Source of the DNA: an uncultured Gammaproteobacteria bacterium
GTDB taxonomy: Bacteria; Patescibacteriota; Patescibacteriia; CAYYDP01
Length of the DNA stretch: 13,840 nucleotides
NCBI GenBank assembly: GCA_964470645.1
Contig: CAYYDP010000033.1
Location: forward strand, 1-13,840
Reading direction: 5' to 3'
Part shown: one piece after another, positions 1,660 to 13,840 of the stretch
Layout: every line of letters starts with the position of its first letter
Position numbering within the stretch: the stretch's first letter is position 1
Notes under the pieces: generated by a model
The model's input: only the letters and a program-made list of their open reading frames with translations
Databases searched by the model: none
What the model was told of the DNA's origin: nothing
Position numbers and translations under genes: made by a program

Positions 1660-3024
1660 TTATCTCCACTTTGAAAACACCGCTCCCGCTCCCAACCCCT
1701 CCTCAATCCTCAAAAGCTGATTGTACTTAGCGACGCGATCAGTTCGAGAAAGCGAACCCGTTTTAATCTGTCCACACCCCAACCCAACCACAAAATCCGC
1801 GATGGTCGTGTCTTCGGTTTCCCCTGACCGGTGAGAAATGATCGATGTGTATTTCGCATCGTTTGCCATCTTGATGCAATCAATCGTTTCGGTCACTGTC
1901 CCAATTTGATTGAGCTTCACCAAAATCGAATTGCAAATCTTCTGATCAATTCCCATTTTCAAACGCTTCGGATTTGTCACAAATAAATCATCACCAACGA
2001 GCTGAGTTTTATCACCCAACGTTTCAGTCAATAATCGATACCCCTCCCAATCATCCTCCGAGAGTCCATCTTCAATGGAAACAATTGGGTACTTTTCGCA
2101 CCACGACGCGTACACACCGACCAACTCTTCTGATGATAACACTTTTCCCTCAATCTCAAGATGATACTTCCCGTCCTTATAAAGCTCCGTTGCGGCAACA
2201 TCAAGCGCCAACGAAATATCCTTTCCCGGTTCATATCCAGCCGATCGAATCGCCTCCAAAATCACCTCAACAGCGGCTTCGTTCGCACCGAGTGCTGGAG
2301 CATACCCACCCTCATCCCCAACCGACGTTGAAAACCCCTTCTTCGCGAGAATTTTTTTGAGTGCATGAAATGTTTCTGCTCCATACCGCAAGGCTTCCCG
2401 AAAACTTGCAGCCCCGTGCGGAACAATCATAAACTCCTGGAAATCTGTTGATCCAGCCGCGTGCTTGCCGCCATTCAACACGTTCATCAAAGGCACGGGC
2501 ATGATGTACCTTCCCTGACTTTCTCCCTCCCTTAAGGTAAGGGAGGGTTGGGGAGAGTTATGCTCTGCTGAGCCCATAACCCCCTCAGTCCCCCTTACCT
2601 TAAGGGGGAGGTATAAATCACGAAAATATTCATACAACGTTTTCTTCTCACAAAGAGCCGCTGCCTTGCTAAACGCCATGGAAACCCCAAGAAGCGCGTT
2701 TGCGCCCAACGCTCCCTTGTTCTCAGTACCATCAAGCGCAATAAGCGCGGCGTCAAGATCTCGTTGATCAAACGATTTTCTTGTCATGGATTGAGCAATG
2801 GTAGTACGCACATTCTCAACCGCCTTCAAAACCCCTTTCCCACCATAGCGTTTCGAATCGCCATCTCGAAGTTCAACCGCTTCATGACTCCCCGTGGAAG
2901 CCCCCGAAGGGACCGCTGCCCTCCCAAATGCGCCGTTTTCAAGCTCGACTTCGACTTCGACCGTTGGATTTCCGCGAGAATCAAGAATTTCTCTTGCGTG
3001 TATAGATTTGATTGTATGTTGCAT
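1660..3024 (-). CDS. eno: Enolase (phosphopyruvate hydratase) carrying an in-frame insertion of about 29 aa
   Basis: N-terminal [19 protein letters not shown] and SGASTG, central [12 protein letters not shown] and [11 protein letters not shown]-terminal [18 protein letters not shown] and [22 protein letters not shown]. The protein is 454 aa against about 425-432 aa for typical enolases. The extra residues map to the palindromic element at 2508-2612. Confidence 0.95.
2508..2612. mobile_element. Short palindromic MITE-like element (RPE-like), copy 1, inserted in-frame within eno
   Basis: Left hairpin 2525-2547 (ccctccctta-agg-taagggaggg, 10-bp perfect stem). Right hairpin 2589-2609 (tccccctta-cct-taaggggga, 9-bp perfect stem). 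The two ends are near reverse complements of each other. The core shares gagttatgc and cataacccc with the second copy at 13549-13698. The hairpin-to-hairpin span is 87 nt, or 29 codons, and is read through without a stop in the eno frame. Confidence 0.55.
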
Positions 3025-3437: not shown

Positions 3438-4016
3438 ATGCAAGTCCCCAACCCGCTCGTCGTCGCCTTAACAGGAGAAAGAGGATCTGGCAAAGGTCTC
3501 TTTGCCGAATGTTTCAAGGAACTCGTTCCCAATAAACGCATTGTTTCCATGAAATTCCAAGATCCTCTTCGTGAAATATTAACGATTCTAAACAAACCCA
3601 TTGCTCGAGAAAACTATTCCGCCCTCGCAACAGCCCTTCGCACAGCATTCAGTGATGAAGGAATCCTTGTGGGAGCCATGAAACAACGAATTCAAGCCTC
3701 GGACGCCGACATTGTCATTCTCGACGGTGTCAGAAAAGCAGAAGAGGTCCCGTTCATCCATGAAATGAGCGGGATTCTTGTCTATATCACCGCAGACCAA
3801 AAAACCCGCTTTGAACGCAGAAGCAGAAATCCAGAAAAAGCAGATGAATTTGGTATGAGTTGGGAAGCCTTCTTGGAGCAGGACAATCTCCCCACCGAGC
3901 TCACGATCCGATCCATCGGCGAGACCCTATCAGACGTCACCATCGACAACAGCGGAAGTGTGGAGGAGTTTAGGGAAAAAGTTAAAACATTTTTAAGACA
4001 ACAAAATTTTATTTGA
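3438..4016 (+). CDS. P-loop nucleotide kinase, dephospho-CoA kinase (CoaE)-like or dNMP-kinase-like
   Basis: 192 aa. Walker A is ALTGERGSGKG, of the LTGxxGSGK type but ending GKG rather than GKS/T. A Walker-B-like DIVILDGVRK follows. The C-terminal TIDNSGSVEEFREKV resembles the CoaE ending ViDNsGsleeL. Confidence 0.5.
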   Translation: MQVPNPLVVALTGERGSGKGLFAECFKELVPNKRIVSMKFQDPLREILTILNKPIARENYSALATALRTAFSDEGILVGAMKQRIQASDADIVILDGVRKAEEVPFIHEMSGILVYITADQKTRFERRSRNPEKADEFGMSWEAFLEQDNLPTELTIRSIGETLSDVTIDNSGSVEEFREKVKTFLRQQNFI

Positions 4017-4037
4017 CTGTTATCCCGTGCTTTGACA

Positions 4038-4071
4038 CCTGCCTCGCCGAACACGAGTCATGGCGGGCGGG
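4038..4071. repeat. GC-rich intergenic hairpin repeat, copy B (degenerate)
   Basis: cctgcctcgccgaacacgagtcatggcgggcggg aligns to copy A with a 3-nt gap and a few substitutions. Confidence 0.35.
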
Positions 4072-4126
4072 ATCCAAACAAAAAAACCAAAAAATCTGTT
4101 TGTGTTATTTTTTACTTTTTGGATTT

Positions 4127-4150
4127 CCTGCCTCGCTGGCAACGGGCGGC
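4127..4150. repeat. GC-rich intergenic repeat, copy C (partial)
   Basis: cctgcctcgctggcaacgggcggc shares the 10-nt cctgcctcgc with copy B and the ggcgg tail. Confidence 0.25.
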
Positions 4151-4387
4151 TAAAACTTACCTTTGTCATTCCACACTTTGATGTGGAATCCAGAAACAAA
4201 AAACAAACAAAAAAGAGAGGCGCTCAGTATAAGGTTTGAACAATGCGCGTTGGCATCATTCGACAACACCTTACACCAAGCCACCTCTCGCCCTAACAGC
4301 TAATCGGAACCATCAAACCCGCAGAAAATCCTCTCCGCGGATTCTTCCGACTTTCAAACCCCGGGCAGAGGTTTGAGAAAATTGAAG

Positions 4388-5563
4388 TTACTTCTGACCG
4401 ACGCCGGGAATCGAGATAAACGGTACACCTCCGCCGGTCACTAGAGGTGTGATGCCGTTCCAACGTTGAATCCCCTGCCACTGTACTAACTGTGGCGATA
4501 AAGAGGACGCCACGAGACGATTCGCTTCAGCTTGGGCTTTGGCGACACGTAAAATTGACTGCGCCTCGCCTTCTGCTGCCGCAATCCTTTGTTTAGCCTT
4601 GGCTTCGGACTGGCGGACTTTATTCTCCGCCTCGATCGCACGTTGCGTCGCCTCAATCACAGCGTTGATGCTCGCCTGAACTTTTTCATCAACGCGCAGC
4701 CCGCCAACAAAGCTGACCATGTCGAACTTGAAACCTTTCGGAACAAGTTCGCGCTGCAGATCAGCCTTGACGCTATCCAGCAATGCTTGTTTTCCCTCAC
4801 CGAAAATATCAACAACTTTTTCAGTGCTGGCTCGCCGGCTGAAGTAATCACGGACCTTGGAACGCATGTATACGTCCGTGATGTGTTCAGGGCTTTTCCT
4901 GAACTCAACGAAAAGTGCGGGCACCTTTTCTCCCTCAAAACCGTAGCTCAACGCGATATCCGCATTGACTATCGCGCCCTCAATGGAATTGAAGGTGATA
5001 CTCTCGTCGTTGGAAGATCCCTCCATCTCGGCCTTCGTCCAAACAACATTTTGGAGGAACGTCGGGAATTTGTACACATCCTCGGTGAGGAGGTTGTACC
5101 ACACTCGCCCCGTGACAAGCGGGAAATCCTCAACACCTTTTTGCGAACCATACTGGTTCACTTTGATGCCAACATATCCCGGCTCAACCTTGGTGCACGC
5201 CGACATTCCTGACAGCAGCATCACTCCAAGAACCAGCATCGAAACCTTCTCGAGGTGGGAGGGGACACGGCGTTCCGGTGTCGTGCGAGGCGGCGCAGGC
5301 GGGAGCGGTTGAAAATCGCTCGACGGTTTGCCGCCGTTCTCGTTGTCGTCATCATGCTTCGAAACTTTCCTGATGCGATGGACGAGTTTGATGAAAAATG
5401 CCGCTCCGCCAAACAGTGTTGCGACAACAAGTACGAACCCCGCCAAGACGGCGAAGTCGTTAGCGGCGGTCATCAACCCACATCCCGATGAGAATAAAAA
5501 CATCATTATCGGAATTGCGAGGAGTCCGCCACCAACCCAGAGAAAAATTTCTCGGGTTTTCAT
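4388..5563 (-). CDS. SPFH/band-7 (prohibitin/HflKC-like) domain protein with an N-terminal membrane extension
   Basis: The C-terminal 280 aa form an SPFH domain followed by a coiled-coil and Ala/Gln-rich tail (IEATQRAIEAENKVRQSEAKAKQRIAAAEGEAQ). The N-terminus has two TM helices and a Pro-rich linker, then a lipoprotein-like signal MLVLGVMLLSGMSAC at residue 109. A good RBS ttAGGAGagttcct precedes the ATG at 5563. Confidence 0.75.
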   Translation of the reverse strand: MKTREIFLWVGGGLLAIPIMMFLFSSGCGLMTAANDFAVLAGFVLVVATLFGGAAFFIKLVHRIRKVSKHDDDNENGGKPSSDFQPLPPAPPRTTPERRVPSHLEKVSMLVLGVMLLSGMSACTKVEPGYVGIKVNQYGSQKGVEDFPLVTGRVWYNLLTEDVYKFPTFLQNVVWTKAEMEGSSNDESITFNSIEGAIVNADIALSYGFEGEKVPALFVEFRKSPEHITDVYMRSKVRDYFSRRASTEKVVDIFGEGKQALLDSVKADLQRELVPKGFKFDMVSFVGGLRVDEKVQASINAVIEATQRAIEAENKVRQSEAKAKQRIAAAEGEAQSILRVAKAQAEANRLVASSLSPQLVQWQGIQRWNGITPLVTGGGVPFISIPGVGQK

Positions 5564-5791
5564 AGGAACTCTCCTAAATGAAAAAGTGAGAAACGTGAAA
5601 CATAAATTGGAAAAACATCTATCGAAGAATCCCGCGAGAGAACCGCGGGAATTGAAGAAAGTTGTAAAGAACCGTTTTTTAATCGCCTCATCCTAGAAGC
5701 GATCCGTGAATTCTTTCGAACTCACGACGGCTCAACATAGCAGAAGAAGAAGAAGTCAAGCCACTTTGGGCTAAAAATGGCTAAGGTTTAA

Positions 5792-5842
5792 GAGTCCAAC
5801 CGGCAATTTGGGCGGAAATTGCCGGTTGGAGGTTATCAACAG
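5792..5842 (+). repeat. Structured direct repeat R1: 15-bp perfect hairpin followed by ggaggttatcaacag; attC-like ends
   Basis: tccaaccggcaattt-gggcgg-aaattgccggttgga, then ggttatcaacag. The 27-mer aaattgccggttggaggttatcaacag (5816-5842) recurs exactly at 6773-6799. The 5' word gagtccaaccggc recurs at 6727-6739 as gagtctaaccggc. Confidence 0.6.
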
Positions 5843-5913
5843 TAGATATCATCAAAAGATGTAATCCGGATTTAGAAAGGCTGAAATGCGATTTAAGATC
5901 GCACCGACGGCGG

Positions 5914-5942
5914 TTGACCATGGTCACCCGCTTATGTATACT
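5914..5942 (+). promoter_or_regulatory. Sigma-70-type promoter TTGACC-17-TATACT for the PIN toxin operon, overlapped by the 12-bp palindrome tgaccatggtca (5915-5926), a likely autoregulatory operator
   Basis: The -35 is at 5914-5919 and the -10 at 5937-5942, with a 17-nt spacer, about 45 nt upstream of the 5987 ATG. Confidence 0.45.
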
Positions 5943-5986
5943 TTCGTTAGAGCAATCATGATTGTATCTCAAGTTTCTACATCATT

Positions 5987-6181
5987 ATGAGTCAGGAAAT
6001 ATACAACCAGCAAAAACTTCTTACCATTACCCACGTTGTCAGACCTTGGCAGACCGCAACGCGTGCTGATGGGTCAGTTTCAGAGTCGCTACTTGAACAA
6101 TACGATCGCATTCGCGAGCGTGCGGATGTTGCCATGCGGGATACCGATCCGGTTAAGCTCATCCGCGAACAGAGAGATTAA
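5987..6181 (+). CDS. Small protein immediately upstream of the PIN toxin gene; putative antitoxin of unclassified fold
   Basis: 64 aa. Its stop at 6179-6181 lies 2 nt before the ATG at 6184 of the PIN gene. No recognisable RHH, AbrB or Phd signature, so the call rests on position and size only. Confidence 0.35.
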   Translation: MSQEIYNQQKLLTITHVVRPWQTATRADGSVSESLLEQYDRIRERADVAMRDTDPVKLIREQRD

Positions 6182-6216
6182 ATATGTAATTCTATGCTGC
6201 TTACTGTGACAGTTCT

Positions 6217-6597
6217 GTGTGGATCGCCGCGTTCATGAAAGAATCTCGCGGGGAACAAGCGGACAAACTCATTCGCGAATGTCTGGATGGGACTCATCAG
6301 CTCATTACTCCAATCATCATTCCGCTCGAAGTACTATCCGCGATGCAGCGACAGAGCCACGATATATCTCTTGCTGAAGAATCATATAACCTCATCATGT
6401 CATTGCCAAACAATGAACTCGTTGAATTGGATTTTGTAACTTCCCGCCTTGTAAAAGCAACCATTGCCGAAACAGGACTGAAAGCCAACGACGCATTTAT
6501 TCTCACGGTCTGCCGCGAATCACATTCGACGCTCGCAACGTTTGATGATGAATTATTGAATCGGGCGAAAGAAACCGGTATCGCCACGATTATGTGA
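6217..6597 (+). CDS. PIN-domain (VapC-like) toxin; the annotatable ORF starts at GTG 6217 but the conserved N-terminal Asp strand lies upstream behind a TAA at codon 2
   Basis: PIN motifs are present: ...IPLEVLSAM (Glu), GLKANDAFILTVC (Asp) and LATFDDEL (T.D.DF). Upstream in the same frame the sequence reads ATG(6184) TAA(6187) then FYAAYCDSSVWIAAF, a typical PIN beta-1 strand with the motif-1 Asp (gac) at 6208-6210. Confidence 0.7.
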   Translation: MWIAAFMKESRGEQADKLIRECLDGTHQLITPIIIPLEVLSAMQRQSHDISLAEESYNLIMSLPNNELVELDFVTSRLVKATIAETGLKANDAFILTVCRESHSTLATFDDELLNRAKETGIATIM

Positions 6598-6655
6598 AGG
6601 TGGGCAACACAACGTATTTTAATCCAAACAACTCGCAAGTCATTGAAATAGTTCG

Positions 6656-6690
6656 AAACCGCTCACTGATGGGCGGTTTTGTTTATTCAT
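6656..6690 (+). terminator. Rho-independent terminator after the PIN toxin gene
   Basis: aaaccgc-tcactgatgg-gcggttt followed by tgtttattc. Confidence 0.5.
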
Positions 6691-6726
6691 GTTTATAAAT
6701 CGCTGATAAAAATGCCTAACTTTCGA

Positions 6727-6799
6727 GAGTCTAACCGGCGCAAAACCCAAATCGTTGGGCTGTTTGCTGCCCAAATTGCCGGTTGGAGGTTATCAACAG
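6727..6799 (+). repeat. Structured direct repeat R2: a longer-loop variant of R1 with the same 3' 27-mer
   Basis: gagtctaaccggc...(inner cccaaatcgttggg)...aaattgccggttggaggttatcaacag. The stem ucuaaccggc/gccgguugga has one G-U wobble. The GGAGG lies 12 nt before ATG 6802. Confidence 0.6.
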
Positions 6800-6801
6800 A
6801 G

Positions 6802-7560
6802 ATGGTAAGATTATTTCAGAAACTGCCTATGTCGGATGACCAAACCACACAAGAGCAAACGAACAGCGTTGAGCAAGCATCGATATCACCCATTGCGGAT
6901 CCAACCACTCCGCAGGTCCCACCTCCAGTGGACGAATCGAACTCAACAATCGAGCCCCAATCTCAAACACAAGAACCGGCAGCTCCGACTGTTGAACCAA
7001 GCGAGCCGAAAGAAGAAGCGCTAGCAACGCCGCCAATCGAACAAGCACCTGCTCCGGAACAAGGAAGGGCGCAAGATGTTGCGCCCCTACAGACTGAACC
7101 CAACGTCATTATCAAAGAAGTGATTCGTGAAGTTCCGGTTGAAACAATCGTTGAGCGAATCGTAGAAAAACCCGTCGAAGTCGTTAAAGAAATCGTAAAA
7201 GAGGTCCCCGTGGATCGGGTCGTAGAAAGAATTGTTGAAAAACCGGTCGAGAAAATTATTGAAAAAGAAGTGGTTCGCGAAGTGCCAGTGTTCGATCACA
7301 GACAACACGCGGAAGAAGTAAAAAAGAAAGCGAGGATGTTGGTCGTTCCCGCAACTGCGCAACGACAGGCAAAACGCGACGTGAAGCTTGCAAAAGTTCT
7401 GGAGGAAGCGAAACGCAAAGGTAGAATTGGGAATAATGACGTGCAAATCCTCGTTGCGGTATCCGATCGCACGGCGCGAAATTACTTGGCAGAGCTTGTG
7501 AAACAAGGAAAGCTCAAAACTGTTCACCGCGGCCGCTGGGCGCATTATGTTCCTGTTTGA
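6802..7560 (+). CDS. Protein of unknown function: acidic Pro/Gln/Glu-rich N-terminus, tandem 11-residue VE(R/K)IVEKPVE-type repeats, C-terminal winged-helix HTH
   Basis: The C-terminal NNDVQILVAVSDRTARNYLAELVKQGKLKTVHRGRWAHYVPV fits the wHTH pattern (..S.RTA.RdL.eLv..G.l...G.gR...Y). The ORF is open from 6679, but 6679-6801 overlap the terminator and R2, so the ATG at 6802 preceded by GGAGG is the more likely start. An alternative ATG lies at 6829. Confidence 0.55.
   Translation: MVRLFQKLPMSDDQTTQEQTNSVEQASISPIADPTTPQVPPPVDESNSTIEPQSQTQEPAAPTVEPSEPKEEALATPPIEQAPAPEQGRAQDVAPLQTEPNVIIKEVIREVPVETIVERIVEKPVEVVKEIVKEVPVDRVVERIVEKPVEKIIEKEVVREVPVFDHRQHAEEVKKKARMLVVPATAQRQAKRDVKLAKVLEEAKRKGRIGNNDVQILVAVSDRTARNYLAELVKQGKLKTVHRGRWAHYVPV
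7111..7293 (+). repeat. In-frame tandem coding repeats of about 33 nt encoding EVPVETIVERIVEKPVEVVKEIVKEVPVDRVVERIVEKPVEKIIEKEVVREVPV
   Basis: The periodicity is visible in both DNA and protein. The spurious reverse-strand ORF 7087..7545 is an artefact of this low-complexity region. Confidence 0.6.
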
Positions 7561-7577
7561 AAAGCCCCTTCAAAAAT

Positions 7578-7904
7578 TTACACCTTCATCTCAATCCCGT
7601 GCTTCTTGATTTCCAACGTGAGCGAGGTATCATCTTTGAAATCTTTCGGATTAAAACCAAGGGGTTCGACCCTGGGCTCGGTATCCACCGTACGTTTGAG
7701 CCAGAGATATTGAAGCGCTGAAAACGCGTCTTTAAACTTTGGTGAGATAATGCAAACGTCCACGTCGCTCAACCGATTTTGCTTTCCTTTTGCGTAGGAA
7801 CCAAAAAGAATGACCCTTTGAATTGGCAATCTATCAGCTTTAAGCACGCTCACATACTCACGAATCGCGGTTTTCACTTTTTTGGGAATTGTTCTTCGAG
7901 CCAT
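7578..7904 (-). CDS. Minimal nucleotidyltransferase (MNT, Pol-beta superfamily), the HEPN-partner (MntA-like) protein
   Basis: Hallmark motif ILFGSYAKGKQNRLSDVDVCII (GS...G......SD.D). 108 aa. Its start overlaps the HEPN ORF by 31 nt. Confidence 0.85.
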   Translation of the reverse strand: MARRTIPKKVKTAIREYVSVLKADRLPIQRVILFGSYAKGKQNRLSDVDVCIISPKFKDAFSALQYLWLKRTVDTEPRVEPLGFNPKDFKDDTSLTLEIKKHGIEMKV

Positions 7905-8276
7905 AGACGTAATTGTTCAGAAATACGCAGATACTTTTTTGTATACGAAGGTGTACACAGTTTATAGAACTGATACTTTGTATCTCCATATCGACCTGCG
8001 ATATTAAAGGTCGTGATGAGGCGCAACTCCTCTTCCTGACTCTTCGTTGGCTTCAGTCCCGCTTGCTTTGCCAAATACGAAAGATCATGAATGTATGAAG
8101 CCTGGTTTACGAGTCTTAATCATGAACAACGTCTTGATCATCTTTTCAAGCGTTAAATGACAGAAAAAGAGACACGAGTCGTAATGCTTGAGCCTAAAAA
8201 GACTTTGAGCCGTTTTCCAGTTCCGTTCAGCTGATTCTTTCCAGTAATCGATTTGTTTTTGAATCGAGATAGACAT
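7874..8276 (-). pseudogene. HEPN-domain (HepT-like) toxin gene split into two ORFs (8276..8085 and 8074..7874) by a +1 or +4 frameshift near 8084-8093
   Basis: The N-terminal half (AERNWKTAQSLFRLKHYDSCLFFCHLTLEKMIKTLFMIKTRKPGFIHS*) and the other frame (..SYIHDLSYLAKQAGLKPT...NIAGRYGDTKYQFY...) together reconstruct the HEPN consensus ..QAaEKalKAll...g..p.tHDL..L. On the reverse strand the H codon (8093-8091) and D codon (8086-8084) are separated by the 4 nt tcat. Confidence 0.6.
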
Positions 8277-8416
8277 TGACCGTAATTATAGAGTAAAAAA
8301 ACCATGTCAATGAAATCAAAGCGGAAACGTGATATGATGATAATAATAGAGATCTCTCACGTTTGCCTGTTTAATTTGAAGATTGCTTCGTCGCATCCGA
8401 CCCCGGTAGTAGAAAC

Positions 8417-10564
8417 GTGCGTTTCACTACGGGGCAGACTTACCTCGCAATGACACTTTTAATTATGCTATCTCCATCATCGCCTGTCACATCCCTCTCT
8501 ACCATCGCGAAGAAACTTGAAAAAGTCTTGAGCAAGATTGAGGTGAAAACCGTTGAAGATCTGCTTCATCACTATCCTTCACGATATGTGGATCTTTCGA
8601 ATATCACACCCATCAATAAACTCGTTCCGGGTGTATTGACCACCATCAAAGGCGAGGTTATTTCCATTGAAGATATTCGATCGCAATGGAAACGGATGTT
8701 CATCACGAAAGCCATTGTAAAAGACGAAACGGGGGTATTGGAGTGCGTTTGGTTTCATCAACGGTTTTTAACAAAAGTAATCAAACCGGGCGACATGCTA
8801 TTACTCTCGGGCAAGCCAGAACTTTCAAAAACCGGTTTACAAATTACACACCCTGAATACGAAAAGATATCAGAAGACAAAACGCCCATCCACGGAGCGC
8901 GGATTGTTCCGATCTATCCTCTCACGGAACGGCTTACGCAAAAACAACTTCGTTTCTTGATCAAGATTGCTTTGGGAAAAACTTCCATTCCCGAATGGCT
9001 GCCATCGAGTATATTGAAAGCCTATAACCTCATTCCTCTAAAAACCGCGCTCAATGCGATTCATTTTCCAACAAATCAGAAGATCTTATCTGCAGCAGAG
9101 CACCGACTCAAGTTTGATGAATTATTCTCGTTGCAACTCCGAAACTCTCTCGCGAGAAAAGAGCTCGCCCAACTTCAAGCCCCATCAATCGGGTTTCACG
9201 AACAAGAAACGAAGACATTTGTTGACTCTCTACCGTTTGAACTCACCAAGACTCAAAAACAATCAGCGTGGGAGATTATCAAAGATATTCAAAAACCTCA
9301 TCCAATGAATCGACTGCTCCATGGTGATGTTGGAAGCGGAAAAACGGTTGTCTCAAGCATTCCCGTGTTCAATGCCATGCTTTCAGGATTTCAGGTTGCC
9401 TATATGGCTCCAACGGAAATTCTCGCAGAGCAGCAGTTTAAGACATTTTGTCGGTTGTTTGAGAAGCATGGGTTCACGATTGGATTGATCACATCGTCAG
9501 GAGTATCGAGATTCCAAGAATCAAGTATTAAGTATAAAGAATCAAGGAACGAATTTCTCAATGCGATACAAAAAGGAGAAATCAATCTCATCATTGGCAC
9601 TCACTCGCTTATTCAAAAAGACGTTGAATTTAAAAATCTCGGTTTGGTTGTGGTTGACGAACAACATCGTTTTGGCGTCAGACAAAGACAGGCTCTACTA
9701 AGACCTTCACACCTTCACACCTTCACACCTTCACACACGATTCCCCATTTTCTTTCCATGACCGCAACCCCCATCCCTCGTACACTCGCGCTTACGGTGT
9801 ATGGCGATTTGGATATTTCAGCAATCACAGAAATGCCGCGGAGCCGCAAGTCAATCATCACCAAATTCATTCCTCGCGAAAAACGAAACGAACTCTATGC
9901 TCACGTCGCAGAAGAACTCTCAAAAGGACGACAAGTATTCATTGTATGTCCACTCATTGATCCCTCTGATATACTCGGTGTAAAGTCAGCAACCGAAGAG
10001 GTCAACAAAATCAAAACAACCTTTTCAGACTTCAACATCGCGATTCTCCACGGAAAACAAAAAGCTGAAGCGAAAAATAAGATCATGAAAGAGTTCCAGG
10101 AGCGCAAACATCATATCCTTGTCTCAACACCAGTCGTGGAAGTGGGGATCGACATCCCGAATGCCTCCATCATGATTATTGAAAGCGCGGAGCGGTTCGG
10201 ACTTGCCCAACTCCATCAACTTCGCGGCCGCGTTGGCAGAGGAGAACACCAATCGTACTGTTACCTGCTTTCCGATTCAGAGTCTGACGCAACAAAACAA
10301 CGTCTTAGCGCCGTGATTGGTTCAACCTCTGGACTGGCACTCGCTGAAAAAGACCTGGAGCTCAGAGGCCCGGGAGACGCGTACGGAACCAAACAATCAG
10401 GGTATGAAGACACGCTCTATATCGCCCGACTTACGGATTTCCCCATTATCAAAGAAGCACGACATGCCGCGGAACAGCTTGTGACAGAAGACCCAATGTT
10501 ATCAAAATGGAGCGCAGTCAAACTCAGGGTAGAAGAAATGGAGCGGAAGATTCACCTGGAATAG
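8417..10564 (+). CDS. recG: ATP-dependent DNA helicase RecG
   Basis: Wedge domain at the N-terminus. Helicase motifs GDVGSGKT, VVDEQHRFGV, MTATPIPRTL and QLHQLRGRVGRG. TRG-type C-terminus. The frame opens at GTG 8417, but the more likely starts are ATG 8450 or 8465 (MTLLIMLSPSSPVTSLSTIAKKLEKV...). Confidence 0.9.
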   Translation: MRFTTGQTYLAMTLLIMLSPSSPVTSLSTIAKKLEKVLSKIEVKTVEDLLHHYPSRYVDLSNITPINKLVPGVLTTIKGEVISIEDIRSQWKRMFITKAIVKDETGVLECVWFHQRFLTKVIKPGDMLLLSGKPELSKTGLQITHPEYEKISEDKTPIHGARIVPIYPLTERLTQKQLRFLIKIALGKTSIPEWLPSSILKAYNLIPLKTALNAIHFPTNQKILSAAEHRLKFDELFSLQLRNSLARKELAQLQAPSIGFHEQETKTFVDSLPFELTKTQKQSAWEIIKDIQKPHPMNRLLHGDVGSGKTVVSSIPVFNAMLSGFQVAYMAPTEILAEQQFKTFCRLFEKHGFTIGLITSSGVSRFQESSIKYKESRNEFLNAIQKGEINLIIGTHSLIQKDVEFKNLGLVVVDEQHRFGVRQRQALLRPSHLHTFTPSHTIPHFLSMTATPIPRTLALTVYGDLDISAITEMPRSRKSIITKFIPREKRNELYAHVAEELSKGRQVFIVCPLIDPSDILGVKSATEEVNKIKTTFSDFNIAILHGKQKAEAKNKIMKEFQERKHHILVSTPVVEVGIDIPNASIMIIESAERFGLAQLHQLRGRVGRGEHQSYCYLLSDSESDATKQRLSAVIGSTSGLALAEKDLELRGPGDAYGTKQSGYEDTLYIARLTDFPIIKEARHAAEQLVTEDPMLSKWSAVKLRVEEMERKIHLE
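9704..9735 (+). repeat. Tandem octamer (ccttcaca)x4 inside recG, encoding PSHLHTFTPSHT between helicase motifs II and III
   Basis: Four contiguous perfect copies read directly from the sequence. Confidence 0.7.
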
Positions 10565-11590: not shown

Positions 11591-12862
11591 TTATCTCAAT
11601 TGGATCTTCATCACCTTCCCAACGCTTCCATCCACAAAATACAATTCGGATCCATCAGGAGAAAGCGATAGTTGTTCAACCGGGATCCTTCTCCCATCTT
11701 CCGTAACAGGCTCAGCAACAAGCTGGGTTGATCCGGTTTCCAGATTTACCTCATAGATACTCGCTTCCCGCGGGTTAAAAAGCTCAGGATACAATCCCGT
11801 CCCGGGAGGAAGACTGTCCTGAACGGAACAATACGCCTTTGTGCCGTCCGGGTTCATAGCGCACGAATCAATCGAGGTGGATAGCCCCAATGGGGTATTG
11901 TTGAGACCAATCGAGTCCCCTCGAGCATCAACAATCCACAACGTCGGGTTGTAATTATTTTCCGGCGTGCTCACGCTATACAACAGCCTCTGTCCATCGG
12001 GCGTCCACTCGCCCTTAAACCCAATACCCTGCACTACCATCGATTTGAAATTTTCATCTTGTTGTCCGATAAAAATAATCTCTTCTGATGAAACGCCTGC
12101 CGATTTCCTGTACAACCCCACCACGCTTCCATCCGGAGAATACGTAGGCTGAACGCGATCCGCTTGATCTCCAATCGGCTCAATGGCACGCGCCTCGGAA
12201 CCATCCGGAGTACCCATCACCAAGAAACTGCGCTCGGGATCTGGGGAAACAAAATTGAACACGACATTGTCCGAATCCCCTTGAAACACGAAATCTTGTC
12301 CTCCCCGCGGAAGACTGACGCGTTCATTCGTTACAAAATCAACCATTACACCCGTTCCATCAGGAAAACTCAAAAGAGCTCGATCTCCTGATTTGTCCCA
12401 AACGACCCGCTCTGCTGAAGGAAACCGGTCGCGAATAAGTTCAACCCGCTCACCGCCCGATGTCATCCGGTACAATACACCGGTATTAGGCTCGTAGTAC
12501 GAAAACCCAGAAGTTGAGTTTCCCGTGTATGACCTGACCGAATCTTTGGTTACCGGAGATACAAGTGTTTTACCACCATTTGCAACCGTATCAACCGGAA
12601 TCTCACCGGTATCCCCGCCAAAAACACCGTTCACATTGGGCAAGAACCCCCTACCTCCACCCGTCTGTCGGTTCGCGTTAAACCCAGCACCGGTTCCAGG
12701 AAGACCGCCAATAGCCCCTGGGGTGTTCATGTTTTCGTTCATCTGGGGCTGAATCTCCACTGCGGGTTTCAAAAAATACACAACCACCAGCGCCATTGCG
12801 CCGAGAAAAAATAGGATCAAAACGATAAAAATGATTCGATTTTTGGTGAAGAGCATAGTCAA
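11591..12862 (-). CDS. Membrane-anchored PD40/TolB-like beta-propeller protein
   Basis: N-terminal TM helix, a Gly-rich linker, then repeated SPDG/PDG blades (YSPDGSVVGLY, WTPDGQRLLYS, MNPDGTKAYCS, LSPDGSELYFV). The ORF begins at TTG 12862. The ATG at 12856 (MLFTKNRIIF...) is the more likely start. Confidence 0.7.
   Translation of the reverse strand: MTMLFTKNRIIFIVLILFFLGAMALVVVYFLKPAVEIQPQMNENMNTPGAIGGLPGTGAGFNANRQTGGGRGFLPNVNGVFGGDTGEIPVDTVANGGKTLVSPVTKDSVRSYTGNSTSGFSYYEPNTGVLYRMTSGGERVELIRDRFPSAERVVWDKSGDRALLSFPDGTGVMVDFVTNERVSLPRGGQDFVFQGDSDNVVFNFVSPDPERSFLVMGTPDGSEARAIEPIGDQADRVQPTYSPDGSVVGLYRKSAGVSSEEIIFIGQQDENFKSMVVQGIGFKGEWTPDGQRLLYSVSTPENNYNPTLWIVDARGDSIGLNNTPLGLSTSIDSCAMNPDGTKAYCSVQDSLPPGTGLYPELFNPREASIYEVNLETGSTQLVAEPVTEDGRRIPVEQLSLSPDGSELYFVDGSVGKVMKIQLR
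12831..12858. repeat. 28-bp direct repeat DR-a (atgattcgatttttggtgaagagcatag), which encodes the TolB-like N-terminus on the reverse strand and abuts the RelE stop
   Basis: It matches 13457-13484 at 26/28 positions. A third, partial copy at 13729-13748 matches 18/20. Confidence 0.6.
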
Positions 12863-13113
12863 CGATATACACGATGATCGCCAATATCAACAAACTCGGC
12901 TGTTCCTGATACGAATGTAAACAACACCCGATGACTGTGTGTGACAGAGAACGACCAAAATCCAGAGAGCCTTCCGCCCAGTTTGTGCGTCGAGAGTTTT
13001 GGATCAAACGGATCAAGCCTAAAGAGATTCATACGTTCTTCAAACTCTTGTTGGATTTCGATCGGGAGCTTACCCAACGACCGAATGAAGCGACTAGAAT
13101 ACGCAATCTCCAT
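12859..13113 (-). CDS. Type II toxin of the RelE/ParE superfamily
   Basis: 84 aa with ...HKLGGRLSGFWSFSVTHSHRVLFTFVS..AEFVDIGDHRVY, the ParE/RelE C-terminal signature (kL.G.l.g.we.r....yRi.Y......i.il.igHR..vY). Its stop overlaps the start region of the TolB-like gene. Confidence 0.8.
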   Translation of the reverse strand: MEIAYSSRFIRSLGKLPIEIQQEFEERMNLFRLDPFDPKLSTHKLGGRLSGFWSFSVTHSHRVLFTFVSGTAEFVDIGDHRVYR

Positions 13114-13116
13114 ACA

Positions 13117-13413
13117 TTACTCACTTTTTGCATTGACTACTTGATCAAGTTGTTTTGCCTCATCACGAAGTTCTAAAAATCCCTTGTTGCCCAACGTTCG
13201 AAGCAACCCCGCATCTCGCTCACGCTCAAACTCAGCGACAGCTTCCAACGCCCGTTCTTCCGCATCCGACTCATACGTCACGGTATGAACTGGACGAACA
13301 ACAAGTGTATCACCAAACATAATGGCGACGACGTCATCGGATCGAAACGCTTCCGCCCACTCGCGGGGGAGCGTCAATGTTCGCTCTTTGATGGTGAGAG
13401 GAAGATAGGTCAT
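13117..13413 (-). CDS. Antitoxin with an N-terminal AbrB/MazE-type (SpoVT-AbrB swapped-hairpin) domain
   Basis: LTLPREWAEAFRSDDVVAIMFGDTLVVRPV matches the .tiPke.re.lgl.eGd.v.i...g..li..P. pattern. An acidic C-terminal tail follows. The stop lies 3 nt upstream of the RelE start. Confidence 0.7.
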   Translation of the reverse strand: MTYLPLTIKERTLTLPREWAEAFRSDDVVAIMFGDTLVVRPVHTVTYESDAEERALEAVAEFERERDAGLLRTLGNKGFLELRDEAKQLDQVVNAKSE

Positions 13414-13421
13414 ATATGGCG

Positions 13422-13450
13422 ACTATATCATGTTCATACCAATACGTCAA
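13422..13450 (-). promoter_or_regulatory. Sigma-70-type promoter TTGACG-17-TATAGT for the RelE/AbrB operon, implying a leaderless or near-leaderless antitoxin mRNA
   Basis: Reverse strand: -35 is the reverse complement of 13445-13450, and -10 is the reverse complement of 13422-13427. The antitoxin ATG (13413) lies 8 nt after the -10. Confidence 0.45.
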
Positions 13451-13456
13451 AAAAAT

Positions 13457-13484
13457 ATGATTCGGTTTTTGGTGAAGAGTATAG
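13457..13484. repeat. 28-bp direct repeat DR-b (atgattcggtttttggtgaagagtatag), a relic of the TolB-like 5' end with ATG changed to ATA
   Basis: See 12831-12858. It sits 6 nt upstream of the -35 of the RelE/AbrB operon promoter. Confidence 0.6.
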
Positions 13485-13548
13485 ATGAAACCAATTTCTA
13501 ATTCCTAATTTCTAAGTAATCTGTCATTGCGAGGCTTGGCGAAGCAAT

Positions 13549-13698
13549 CTTCCGTCCTTTTTCCTCCTCTTAAGGTAAGAGGAGGCTAGGAGGAGTTATG
13601 CCTTCAACGCACTCAATGTTACTTTATCGATCATTAACATTTGCCGTTCCACACTTCATAACCCCCCTTTCATCCCCTCTTATCTTAAGAGGGGAAAG
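13549..13698. mobile_element. Short palindromic MITE-like element, copy 2 (longer core), intergenic
   Basis: Left hairpin 13563-13585 (cctcctctta-agg-taagaggagg). Right hairpin 13673-13695 (tcccctctta-tct-taagagggga). The core shares gagttatgc and cataacccc with copy 1. The left flank cttccgtcctttttcct matches cttccctgactttct of copy 1. Confidence 0.5.
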
Positions 13699-13840
13699 TA
13701 CCTCAACAATTTTCTCTTTATTTCCCATTTCGATTGTTGGTGAAGAACGCAGTACTCAAATGATACACAAACATTAATACGCTAGTTTATATGTTCCAGG
13801 ATTTGCTGTATCAGGTATTAAACATGTATCATTTAACGAA

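What the first reader, a model, noticed from the sequence alone, without database searches (positions are those of the whole stretch)
12831..13752. RelE/AbrB TA module with its own promoter sits exactly between 28-bp direct repeats that duplicate the 5' end of the TolB-like gene
DR-a (12831-12858) is the real start region of the TolB-like gene (reverse strand ...ct ATG CTC TTC ACC AAA AAT CGA ATC AT). It begins immediately after the RelE stop codon at 12859-12861. DR-b (13457-13484, 26/28 identical) lies 6 nt upstream of the -35 of the TTGACG-17-TATAGT promoter of the TA operon and reads ...ct ATA CTC TTC ACC AAA AAC CGA ATC AT on the reverse strand. This is the same N-terminal coding sequence with the ATG mutated to ATA. 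The 598-bp TA unit plus one repeat (626 bp) therefore looks like a precise insertion that regenerated the target gene's 5' end, as integrase-type site-specific insertions into gene ends do. The alternative is an insertion with an unusually long target duplication. A third, partial copy (13729-13748, 18/20) lies beyond the MITE at 13549-13698, so that element may likewise be bracketed by copies of the same sequence. That is a nested-insertion pattern at a single hotspot.
Basis: seen in the sequence. Interest (0 to 1): 0.62.

Follow-up and report, generated by a model that had tools for sequence, protein, structure and literature searches.

The report
Toxin-antitoxin cassette inserted at a start codon
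A small self-promoted toxin-antitoxin gene pair was inserted exactly at the start codon of a conserved membrane-protein gene in an uncultivated (CPR/Patescibacteria-type) bacterium. The insertion duplicated about 30 bases of the gene's beginning, a known but mechanistically unexplained way in which selfish gene pairs enter genomes without breaking the host gene.

Summary
The downstream copy is the working 5' end of the PD40 beta-propeller ('TolB-like') gene. The upstream copy is a decayed duplicate (ATG>ATA). Three orthologous loci (83, 71 and 52% protein identity) are empty sites: the same 5' coding sequence follows the upstream gene directly, with no TA module. A third, older copy (20/25 in register; at most 18/25 in 2000 shuffles) sits 23 nt after an upstream ORF's stop codon, about where the real start lies in the closest ortholog.

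So at least two serial insertions hit the same position. The 'MITE' between the older copies is a passenger: its family makes no long duplications.

A second TA cassette on the same contig (PIN-domain type, 5771-6799) has the same architecture with an unrelated repeat.

This matches 'insertion with long target duplication', described for restriction-modification systems (PMC2853133). No recombinase, terminal inverted repeats or attC-like structure were found, so the enzymology is unresolved. I favour single-crossover integration of a circular cassette. Moderately interesting; a new member of a known kind.

The parts
11591..12856 (-). Target gene: a 421-aa membrane-anchored PD40 beta-propeller protein ('TolB-like'). 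It starts at ATG 12854-12856.
   Evidence: ORF list. Pfam PD40 E=9e-6. Orthologs P0002-P0004 share the N-terminus MLFTKNRII. Synteny with DsbA and RecG matches L002.
12827..12858 (-). DR-a: the working copy of the duplicated segment, from -2 to +30 of the target gene.
   Evidence: Homology to L002 and L003 ends at 12857. The same junction appears in an independent assembly, L001, with 4 mismatches in 968 nt.
12859..13113 (-). Toxin gene, 84 aa, RelE/YoeB/HigB superfamily (weak matches). Its TGA stop lies 2 nt before the target gene's ATG.
   Evidence: YoeB_toxin E=0.0028. TIGR02116 E=1.6e-5. PDB YoeB 2a6q E=0.0017 and HigB E=0.007. Only one homolog found among 5.8 billion proteins, at 54% identity.
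13117..13413 (-). Antitoxin gene, 98 aa. It ends 3 nt before the toxin ATG. The fold is possibly MazE/AbrB-like.
   Evidence: ORF list. Pfam MazE_antitoxin E=0.14. AF2 model at pLDDT 55 shows strands E3-8, E11-16, helix 17-22, strands E28-33, E36-41, then helix 50-96. Only one distant relative, 40% identity, in an exhaustive phmmer search.
13422..13450 (-). Cassette promoter TTGACG-17-TATAGT, with TG before the -10.
   Evidence: 10/12 match, a consensus scan only.
13453..13484 (-). DR-b: the decayed upstream copy. It differs from DR-a by ATG>ATA, AAT>AAC and one further change.
   Evidence: 29/32 identical to DR-a.
13485..13720 (.). Non-coding spacer (E2) between DR-b and DR-c. It holds a palindromic element plus 72 and 20 nt of other sequence, and is presumably what remains of an earlier insert.
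   Evidence: No ORF with a family match. No significant similarity to the TA cassette: local alignment score 15 against a shuffle mean of 12.7 and maximum of 23.
13557..13700 (.). Palindromic MITE-like element with two terminal hairpins (CCTCCTCTTAAGGTAAGAGGAGG and CCCCTCTTATCTTAAGAGGGG). It is a passenger, not the cause of the repeats.
   Evidence: single-strand fold -26.3 kcal/mol, z=-6.2. Family found in at least 117 genome stretches. No long flanking repeats in the family.
13721..13752 (-). DR-c: the oldest copy. The aligned part is 13728-13752, with CT GCG TTC TTC ACC AAC AAT CGA A. It lies 23 nt downstream of the stop codon of the upstream ORF.
   Evidence: 20/25 in register, with a shuffle maximum of 18 in 2000. 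The stop-to-start spacing in orthologs is 24 nt (L002), 5 nt (L003) and 35 nt (L031).
13774..13839 (-). 3' end of an upstream ORF (...SLNDTCLIPDTANPGTYKLAY*), cut by the contig end. It is presumed to be the last gene of the T4SS-like operon seen in L002 and L003.
   Evidence: Translation. Orthology could not be shown, because the C-termini of the L002 and L003 upstream proteins do not align with each other.
5771..5842 (+). Second case, upstream decayed copy: ATGGCTAAGGTTTAA..., with a 22-nt deletion that leaves a perfect 15-bp hairpin. The last 27 nt are identical to copy 2.
5914..5942 (+). Second case: cassette promoter TTGACC-17-TATACT.
   Evidence: 10/12 match.
5987..6181 (+). Second case: 64-aa candidate antitoxin upstream of the PIN gene.
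   Evidence: ORF list. No family match. Assigned by position only.
6190..6597 (+). Second case: PIN-domain (VapC-like) toxin gene. The domain starts before the first possible start codon (GTG 6217), so the gene may be decaying.
   Evidence: PIN E=1.3e-15 over residues 5-126 of the extended frame, against 4.8e-12 from GTG 6217. Sequence read.
6654..6681 (+). Second case: terminator-like hairpin after the PIN gene.
6706..6799 (+). Second case, downstream intact copy. It spans ATG 6712 and the first 29 codons of the next gene.
   Evidence: The left part has 8/35 differences from copy 1 and the right 27 nt have 0/27 (Fisher p=0.008).
6712..7560 (+). Second case: downstream gene, 282 aa, with a C-terminal winged-helix/HTH-like region.
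   Evidence: weak HTH_DeoR and DUF977 matches. The start codon is not verified by homologs.

Best explanation
What is there: a 594-bp type II toxin-antitoxin cassette with its own sigma-70-type promoter, a 98-aa antitoxin and an 84-aa RelE/YoeB-superfamily toxin. It entered this lineage exactly at the translation start of a conserved PD40-propeller gene. In relatives that gene directly follows a T4SS-like operon. The event duplicated 32 bp of the target, from 2 nt before the ATG to +30.

Consequences. The copy attached to the gene body remains the functional start. It now sits 2 nt after the toxin stop codon, so the gene is probably co-transcribed and translationally coupled with the cassette. 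The other copy, left upstream of the cassette promoter, is decaying (ATG>ATA).

Earlier event. An event of the same kind at the same position left a third, more eroded copy (DR-c) and 236 bp of non-coding remnant, into which a palindromic MITE later landed.

Class. This is 'insertion with long target duplication', so far documented for restriction-modification gene pairs. In that class the repeat often spans a start or stop codon, so the host gene survives.

Shown: the repeats, the empty sites, the serial copies in one register, and a second cassette of the same build.

Inferred route: the cassette arrived as a small circle (or looped DNA) carrying a short stretch identical to the gene's 5' end. 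It integrated by a single crossover across that stretch, catalysed by a recombinase encoded elsewhere or by host homologous recombination. Once in, the addictive TA pair resists loss.
For: - Repeats: 29/32 and 26/28 identity, with none expected by chance.
- Empty sites: three orthologs carry the same 5' sequence directly after the upstream gene and no TA. Their DNA homology to the window stops at 12857, the edge of DR-a.
- Independent assembly of the toxin/DR-a/gene junction from another sample.
- DR-c is significant, lies at the expected original start position, and shares the CT at -2/-1 with DR-a and DR-b, whereas the orthologs have TT there.
- DR-b and DR-c share no derived changes. DR-c is the more diverged (5/25 against 2/25), which fits 'older insert first, TA second'.
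- The insert carries no transposase or integrase gene and has no terminal inverted repeats.
- A second cassette (promoter, 64-aa ORF, PIN gene, terminator) lies between a decayed and an intact copy of the next gene's 5' end, with 27/27 identity at the 3' part.
- The related 21-kb locus L002 has no direct repeat of 20 nt or more within 4 kb.
- For the single-crossover idea: the same left boundary in successive events, and the uneven divergence in case 2 (8/35 against 0/27, p=0.008). That unevenness is expected if a diverged cassette-borne copy recombined within the identical block.
Against: - No recombinase is seen, but only 13.8 kb of the genome is available.
- The two cassettes use unrelated repeat sequences of different length (32 nt against about 72-94 nt). 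One sequence-specific att system therefore cannot explain both.
- 14 nt is the longest uninterrupted identity between DR-a and DR-b today, which is short for RecA-type recombination.
- No circular form, no excision product and no second genomic location of either cassette was found. The toxin and antitoxin have almost no relatives in public data, so mobility of this cassette is not demonstrated.
- The upstream ORF fragment could not be shown to be the ortholog of the L002/L003 upstream gene.
- There is no empty site for the second cassette.
Confidence: 0.6

Rival explanations
1. The cassette is the remnant of a larger integrative element. An integrase-bearing island or prophage-like element integrated site-specifically into the 5' end of the gene, with attL and attR being the repeats. 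Later deletions removed everything except the addictive TA pair. DR-c marks tandem accretion of an earlier element at the same att site.
For: Three copies lie in one register with the same left boundary, as in tandem accretion at an att site. TA modules are typical survivors of decayed mobile elements (general knowledge). The window carries a 4.4-kb accessory island full of partly decayed TA-type genes that is absent from L002.
Against: - Both junctions are extremely tight: 2-6 nt from repeat to -35, and 0 nt from stop codon to repeat. Two very precise deletions would be needed.
- There is no integrase remnant in 12859-13452 or 13485-13720.
- The second cassette has the same tight build with a different repeat.
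- E2 shows no similarity to the cassette.
Confidence: 0.2
2. The repeats are a transposition-type target site duplication. A transposase acting in trans made staggered cuts about 30 nt apart and gap repair duplicated the target, as in the IS1634/IS1630 group, which makes long and variable duplications.
For: Long, variable duplications by such insertion sequences are documented: 19-26 bp for IS1630 (cited in PMC2853133). The two cassettes here have different repeat sequences and lengths.
Against: The cassette ends have no terminal inverted repeats or other shared end sequences. No transposase lies on the contig. Random staggered cuts would not give the same left boundary twice. Case 2 shows uneven divergence along the repeat.
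Confidence: 0.1
3. The TA and the repeats are ancestral at this locus, and the relatives lost them by recombination between the repeats. On this view the empty sites are excision scars rather than the original state.
For: Recombination between 30-nt direct repeats would restore a perfect single copy, which is indistinguishable from a never-occupied site.
Against: Three relatives at 83, 71 and 52% protein identity all lack the TA, and only a near-identical strain has it. DR-b is still 91% identical, so the duplication is young relative to those splits. This view would still require an insertion with duplication at an earlier date.
Confidence: 0.06
4. The repeat is a functional motif, such as an operator, leader or promoter element, kept similar by selection rather than produced by duplication.
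For: DR-b abuts the -35 of the TA promoter.
Against: The same sequence is the conserved N-terminal coding sequence of orthologs that have no TA. It does not recur elsewhere in the window, or in 241 million metagenome records next to related genes, or in viral contigs. It has no secondary structure. DR-c is eroding.
Confidence: 0.03

Closest known systems
Insertion with long target duplication of restriction-modification gene complexes (Nobusato et al. 2000, Gene 259:99; Furuta, Abe and Kobayashi 2010, PMC2853133)
   Same: A small 'addiction'-type gene unit with no mobility gene is flanked by direct repeats tens of bp long. The repeats are present once at the empty site of a related genome. They often span a translation start or stop, so the neighbouring gene stays intact. 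The mechanism is unknown.
   Different: The cargo is a type II toxin-antitoxin pair rather than RM genes. The host is a CPR/Patescibacteria-type bacterium. The repeat (28-32 bp) is at the low end, since Furuta et al. used more than 30 bp as their threshold. Here the same position was hit at least twice in the same register.
Site-specific integrative elements and their integrase-less derivatives, with tandem accretion at one att site (as for ICE/CIME arrays; from general knowledge)
   Same: Direct repeats (attL/attR) regenerate the end of the target gene. Serial elements are separated by copies of the same site.
   Different: No integrase or excisionase is found here. The inserts are only 0.24 and 0.6 kb. 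A second cassette on the contig uses an unrelated repeat.
Integron gene cassettes carrying toxin-antitoxin pairs with their own promoters (chromosomal integrons; general knowledge)
   Same: Compact promoter-bearing TA cassettes of 0.6-0.9 kb, lined up one after another.
   Different: There is no attC-type imperfect hairpin at the cassette boundary: the repeat is unstructured at -1.1 kcal/mol. There is no integron integrase or attI. The repeat is host coding sequence.
TA module 'fenced' by two identical 152-bp direct repeats next to the orthocaspase gene of Microcystis aeruginosa PCC 7806 (PMC7935541)
   Same: A type II TA pair lies between direct repeats next to a host gene.
   Different: Those repeats are much longer, contain inverted repeats, and lie 120-147 bp from the genes. 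No duplication of a host gene's start was described.
Insertion sequences with long, variable target duplications (IS1630/IS1634 group)
   Same: A target duplication of about 20-30 bp or more.
   Different: Those are autonomous elements with a transposase and terminal inverted repeats. Neither is present here.
pdif (Xer) modules of Acinetobacter plasmids, which often carry TA pairs between 28-bp sites (general knowledge; not tested)
   Same: Small modules, often TA pairs, bounded by 28-bp sites.
   Different: pdif sites are XerC/XerD binding sites in alternating orientation and are not host coding sequence. Here the repeats are direct copies of a gene's first 10 codons.

Membership tests
Insertion with long target duplication (Nobusato 2000; Furuta 2010) | The inserted gene unit is flanked by direct repeats. 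| tested here: met
   12827-12858 and 13453-13484, 29/32 identical, 626 nt apart.
Insertion with long target duplication (Nobusato 2000; Furuta 2010) | A related genome has an empty site with a single copy of the repeat and conserved flanks. | tested here: met
   L002, L003 and L031 each have a single copy directly after the upstream gene. DsbA and RecG synteny is conserved in L002. The upstream flank of the window is too short and too variable to align.
Insertion with long target duplication (Nobusato 2000; Furuta 2010) | The repeat is longer than ordinary transposon duplications (Furuta et al. required more than 30 bp). | tested here: inconclusive
   32 nt at 29/32 identity, or 28 nt at 26/28, which is borderline for that threshold. 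The second cassette has about 72-94 nt.
Insertion with long target duplication (Nobusato 2000; Furuta 2010) | No transposase, integrase or other mobile element lies in or next to the insert. | tested here: met
   Pfam and NCBIfam scans of all large ORFs of the contig found none. Only 13.8 kb is visible.
Insertion with long target duplication (Nobusato 2000; Furuta 2010) | The repeat sequence is otherwise unique in the genome. | tested here: inconclusive
   It is unique in the window and absent from unrelated contexts in the metagenome and viral collections. The rest of this genome is not available.
Type II toxin-antitoxin module, RelE/ParE (YoeB/HigB) toxin superfamily | The toxin matches a family model above its curated threshold. 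| tested here: not met
   PF06769 scores 18.1 bits against a cut-off of 27. TIGR02116 scores 25 against 51.8. TIGR02385 scores 16.6 against 27.9. Sub-threshold hits are consistent across YoeB, HigB and RelK structures. The resemblance is likely but membership is not shown.
Type II toxin-antitoxin module, RelE/ParE (YoeB/HigB) toxin superfamily | Two small adjacent co-oriented genes, antitoxin first, behind one promoter. | tested here: met
   98-aa and 84-aa ORFs 3 nt apart, with a promoter-like site 8 nt upstream of the first ATG.
Type II toxin-antitoxin module, RelE/ParE (YoeB/HigB) toxin superfamily | The toxin is toxic and is neutralised by the antitoxin. | not testable with these tools
   Needs expression experiments.
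   PF04014 E=0.14 against a 24.7-bit cut-off. The AF2 model has pLDDT 55 with a strand-strand-helix-strand-strand order. No PDB sequence match.
Integrase-mediated site-specific integration (attL/attR) | A tyrosine or serine recombinase gene lies in the element or nearby. | tested here: not met
   None on the contig. The rest of the genome is unseen, so action in trans is not excluded.
Integrase-mediated site-specific integration (attL/attR) | The same core site is reused, with fixed boundaries. | tested here: met
   DR-a, DR-b and DR-c are in one register and share the CT at -2/-1.
Integron gene cassette | An attC site (imperfect hairpin with R''/R' boxes) at the cassette boundary, plus an integron integrase. 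| tested here: not met
   The repeat is unstructured at -1.1 kcal/mol, z=-0.6. No integrase. The hairpin at the second cassette's repeat has GTCYAAC and GTTGGAG, only an approximate resemblance.
MITE (for the element at 13557-13700) | Terminal inverted repeats, no coding capacity, several copies, and related full-length elements with a gene. | tested here: met
   Inverted hairpin-containing ends. A second copy at 2519-2612. At least 117 stretches in other genomes. Full-length relatives carry a DUF559 endonuclease gene between the same ends.
MITE (for the element at 13557-13700) | A target site duplication flanks the element. | tested here: not met
   No flanking direct repeat of 9 nt or more in 16 complete short copies. 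DR-b and DR-c lie 72 and 20 nt away from the element.

The most novel reading that the evidence does not exclude
CPR-type bacteria may have a recombinase-light route by which promoter-bearing toxin-antitoxin cassettes circulate as 0.6-0.9-kb circles. Each circle would carry the first few tens of bases of a host gene as its 'address' and would integrate exactly at that gene's start codon. Successive cassettes would then pile up at one start codon and rewire the host gene's transcription and translational coupling to the cassette. Two differently addressed cassettes on one 13.8-kb contig would be the first glimpse of a general start-codon-targeted cassette system.
Probability: 0.15. Interest if true: 0.7.

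Novelty: new member of a known kind. Interest (0 to 1): 0.45.

Why it matters
How chromosomal toxin-antitoxin pairs get into genomes is mostly inferred from their association with larger mobile elements. This locus offers a clean before-and-after comparison. A bare TA cassette sits at a start codon with a roughly 30-bp duplication, an older scar lies at the same spot, and a second cassette of the same build lies 6 kb away.

That extends 'insertion with long target duplication', so far an RM-system phenomenon of unknown mechanism, to TA modules and to the streamlined genomes of CPR bacteria. It also shows how such an insertion can take over the expression signals of a conserved operon gene without destroying it.

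The locus gives concrete sequences for testing excision and circle formation: the expected circle junction and the expected empty-site junction.

Tried and rejected
- Exact-protein look-ups of the target gene and the antitoxin found nothing. The toxin look-up gave only a 968-nt contig of the same strain.
- Homolog searches for the toxin and the antitoxin gave 1 and 0 relatives. The one toxin relative (L004) is paired with an RHH antitoxin and shows no flanking repeats, with only 145 nt of upstream sequence available. An exhaustive phmmer search of the antitoxin gave one 40%-identical protein, with no genomic context available.
- The genome-contig scan with the TolB-like alignment first failed for lack of conserved columns. 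It then found no relative, so the lineage is not among the GTDB species representatives.
- A metagenome scan with a degenerate 23-mer of the repeat gave 23 hits, all unrelated coding sequence. The viral scan gave none. Viral scans with the toxin and the antitoxin gave none. The viral scan with the 282-aa protein hit only its low-complexity region.
- Rfam gave nothing at gathering thresholds. The only low-score hit was a plant miRNA hairpin on the palindromic element. No tRNA was found.
- Tandem amplification of the TA unit followed by decay of the upstream copy was tested: the spacer between DR-c and DR-b has no similarity to the cassette above shuffles.
- The MITE as the cause of DR-b/DR-c was rejected.
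- attC-like or hairpin recombination sites at the repeat were rejected.
- GC content does not mark the cassette: 0.468 against 0.46 for the contig.
- The antitoxin structure prediction was too poor for a fold search.
- A blind scan of 0.9 Mb of fetched loci for further long-repeat-flanked cassettes returned mostly small palindromic repeats and was not pursued.
- Literature searches found no description of type II TA insertion with long target duplication.

Full report
**What is in the sequence**

On the minus strand the region reads, 5' to 3':
- the end of an ORF cut by the contig end (stop at 13774-13776);
- 21 nt of spacer;
- DR-c (13752-13721);
- a 236-nt non-coding stretch containing a palindromic element (13700-13557);
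- DR-b (13484-13453);
- a promoter-like TTGACG-17-TATAGT with an upstream TG (13450-13422);
- a 98-aa ORF (13413-13117);
- an 84-aa ORF 3 nt later (13113-12859);
- 2 nt after that ORF's TGA, the ATG of a 421-aa PD40 beta-propeller protein (12856-11591);
- then DsbA, and RecG on the opposite strand.

DR-a and DR-b match 26/28 as reported, and 29/32 when extended. They lie 626 nt apart. No dinucleotide shuffle of the window reproduced such a pair.

DR-c matches DR-a at 20 of 25 positions in the same register. The best match in 2000 shuffles of that region was 18/25, and the best elsewhere in the window was 15/25.

**What the genes are**

The 84-aa protein gives consistent but sub-threshold matches to YoeB, RelE and HigB models and structures.

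The 98-aa protein matches nothing above threshold. It scores E=0.14 against the MazE/AbrB-type Pfam family. A low-confidence AF2 model (pLDDT 55) has the strand-strand-helix-strand-strand order of that fold, followed by one long helix.

By gene order, size, spacing and promoter this is a type II TA operon. The 'RelE' label is probable and the 'AbrB' label is unproven. Both proteins are nearly orphans: one 54% relative for the toxin (paired with a different, RHH antitoxin) and one 40% relative for the antitoxin.

The 'TolB-like' protein is a membrane-anchored PD40 propeller that is common in Patescibacteria. It is not a TolB ortholog.

**Empty sites**

The closest ortholog (83% identity) lies on a 54.6-kb JGI contig (locus L002). 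It is followed by DsbA and RecG exactly as in the window. It is preceded by the last gene of a T4SS-like operon (PrgI-, TraC- and VirB4-like genes and a pilin-like gene), 24 nt upstream of its probable ATG, and no TA is present.

A 71% ortholog (L003) and a 52% ortholog (L031) show the same thing, with 5 and 35 nt between the upstream stop and the ATG.

The first ten codons are conserved at the DNA level in L002 and L003 (ATGCTYTTCACYAAAAAYCGAATCATTTTTAT). The repeated 28-32-mer is therefore host coding sequence. BLASTN homology between the window and L002/L003 stops at 12857, the outer edge of DR-a.

A 968-nt contig assembled independently from another sequencing run (L001) carries the toxin, DR-a and the gene with 4 mismatches. 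That junction is therefore not an assembly artefact, and the insertion is present in a second sample.

Neither is the second (a common motif). A degenerate 23-mer of the repeat found only 23 unrelated coding sequences in the metagenome collection and nothing in viral contigs.

**Serial use of the same site**

DR-c lies 23 nt after the stop of the upstream ORF, about where the real start lies in the closest ortholog, L002 (24 nt). All three copies share CT just before the (pseudo)start, whereas L002 and L003 have TT there, and they diverge immediately upstream of it.

DR-b and DR-c share no derived substitutions. DR-c is the more eroded: 5/25 against 2/25, and it has no similarity beyond position 25.

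The simplest history is as follows. A first insert split the site, giving DR-c and a working copy. Later the TA cassette split the working copy again, giving DR-b and DR-a.

What remains of the first insert is 236 nt with no coding capacity and no similarity to the TA cassette. I found no support for tandem amplification of the TA unit followed by decay.

**The 'MITE'**

The palindromic element is real, but it is not bracketed by the repeats in any mechanistic sense. It sits 72 and 20 nt from DR-b and DR-c.

A second copy lies at 2519-2612, where it forms a clean 30-codon in-frame insertion in the enolase gene relative to L002.

Its end motif (hairpin CCCCTCTTAAGGTAAGAGGGG plus GGGGAGTTATG) occurs in at least 117 stretches of genomes from many phyla. 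In several of these the ATG opens a 121-125-aa DUF559 endonuclease gene that ends at the inverted copy of the same motif.

Sixteen complete short copies, including the two here, have no flanking direct repeat of 9 nt or more. It is a passenger that landed in the spacer.

**A second cassette of the same build**

A whole-window repeat search found a perfect 27-nt direct repeat at 5816-5842 and 6773-6799.

Aligned with an indel, the repeat extends to 5771-5842 and 6706-6799. The downstream copy contains ATG 6712 and the first 29 codons of a 282-aa HTH-like ORF. The upstream copy is a wreck of it, with a stop at codon 5 and a 22-nt deletion that leaves a perfect 15-bp hairpin.

Between the copies lie TTGACC-17-TATACT, a 64-aa ORF, a PIN-domain gene and a terminator.

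The architecture is the same as at the TolB-like gene, but the repeat is unrelated in sequence and longer. I could not find an empty site for it, because the whole 4.4-kb segment 3973-8463 is absent from L002.

Divergence along this repeat is uneven: 8/35 in the left part against 0/27 in the right part (p=0.008).

By contrast, the related 21-kb locus L002 has no direct repeat of 20 nt or more within 4 kb.

**Mechanism**

Shown: insertion of a gene unit that carries no mobility gene and has no terminal inverted repeats, with duplication of a host segment that spans the start codon, at least twice at one site and probably once more at another gene.

This is the pattern called 'insertion with long target duplication', found by genome comparison for restriction-modification systems. 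Its authors noted that the repeats often span translation starts or stops, that most cases are in naturally competent species, and that the mechanism is unknown (PMC2853133). I found no paper describing it for type II TA modules. A TA pair fenced by 152-bp repeats has been noted in Microcystis (PMC7935541).

Inferred: I favour integration of a circular cassette by one crossover across a short stretch shared with the gene's 5' end. The arguments for this are:
- it explains the identical left boundary in successive events;
- it explains the absence of element ends;
- it explains the very tight junctions;
- it explains the uneven divergence in the second case.

Arguments against it are:
- no recombinase is visible;
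- the longest uninterrupted identity is short (14 nt in case 1);
- two unrelated 'addresses' are used.

The rivals are a decayed integrase-bearing element, a long staggered-cut transposition acting in trans, ancestral presence with loss in relatives, and a functional motif. They are weighed in the rival list, and none is excluded except the last.

**Likely consequence (inferred)**

In relatives the PD40 gene is the tail of the T4SS-like operon, with the upstream stop 5-35 nt from its ATG. Here about 0.9 kb of inserted DNA with strong hairpins separates it from that operon. Its ATG now lies 2 nt after the toxin stop, with no terminator between them. It is therefore probably transcribed from the autoregulated TA promoter and translated by coupling to the toxin gene.

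**Verdict**

The interpretation as an insertion at a reused site is supported. The integrase reading is unproven, and the MITE part is not supported.

This is a clear new example, with new cargo and a new host group, of a known but mechanistically unexplained kind of insertion. Interest is moderate.

Noticed in passing
window 5771-6799: A second TA-type cassette (promoter 5914-5942, 64-aa ORF, PIN-domain gene, terminator) lies between a decayed and an intact copy of the 5' end of the next gene (ATG 6712). The last 27 nt are 100% identical. The left part differs at 8/35 positions and has a 22-nt deletion that creates a perfect 15-bp hairpin. No empty site was found for it.
   Followed up: partly
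window 2519-2612 (inside enolase ORF 1660-3024, minus strand): A copy of the palindromic element forms a clean 30-amino-acid in-frame insertion between the N- and C-terminal domains of enolase, relative to the 83%-identical L002 ortholog. The ORF stays open with full-length Pfam matches. This resembles the in-frame palindromic elements of Rickettsia.
   Followed up: partly
window 13557-13700 and 2519-2612; loci L039-L155; viral loci L028-L030: The palindromic element belongs to a family spread across phyla: Uhrbacteria and other Patescibacteria, Dehalococcoidia/Chloroflexota, Nitrospirae, Desulfobacteraceae, Gammaproteobacteria, Chlamydiae and Bacteroidales. Full-length members carry a 121-125-aa DUF559 (Vsr-like) endonuclease gene between inverted ends made of hairpin plus GGGGAGTTATG. 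Most copies are short derivatives of 73-133 nt without target duplications. I found no paper on this.
   Followed up: partly
window 3973-8463: This 4.4-kb segment is absent from the syntenic locus L002. It holds a Band7/SPFH protein, a frameshifted RHH-like remnant (about 5596-5740), the PIN cassette, an HTH protein, and a nucleotidyltransferase (MNT, 7578-7904) next to what looks like a HEPN gene split in two (7874-8276). This is an accessory island of partly decayed TA-type genes.
   Followed up: partly
window 6190-6220: The PIN domain match begins upstream of the first available start codon (GTG 6217). The frame is open from the TAA at 6187-6189 but has no ATG, GTG or TTG, so the toxin may have lost its start and first acidic residue.
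   Followed up: no
window 9703-9734 (inside RecG): Four tandem copies of the 8-mer ACCTTCAC lie inside the RecG ORF, in a stretch that does not align with the L002 gene (BLASTN gap 9689-9738).
   Followed up: no
window 13520-13548; also 4020-4200: Short palindromic motifs of the GTCATTGCGAGG...GAAGCAATC type sit next to the MITE and at the island border. Very similar motifs recur as multi-copy repeats in many of the fetched loci, for example L046, L083, L086 and L144.
   Followed up: no
L002 8337-10001 vs L003 3165-4946: The gene upstream of the PD40 gene is conserved only in its first 380 or so residues (56% identity). The C-terminal 170-210 residues do not align at all. L003 also carries an extra 23S_rRNA_IVP-family gene after the VirB4-like gene that L002 lacks.
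   Followed up: no
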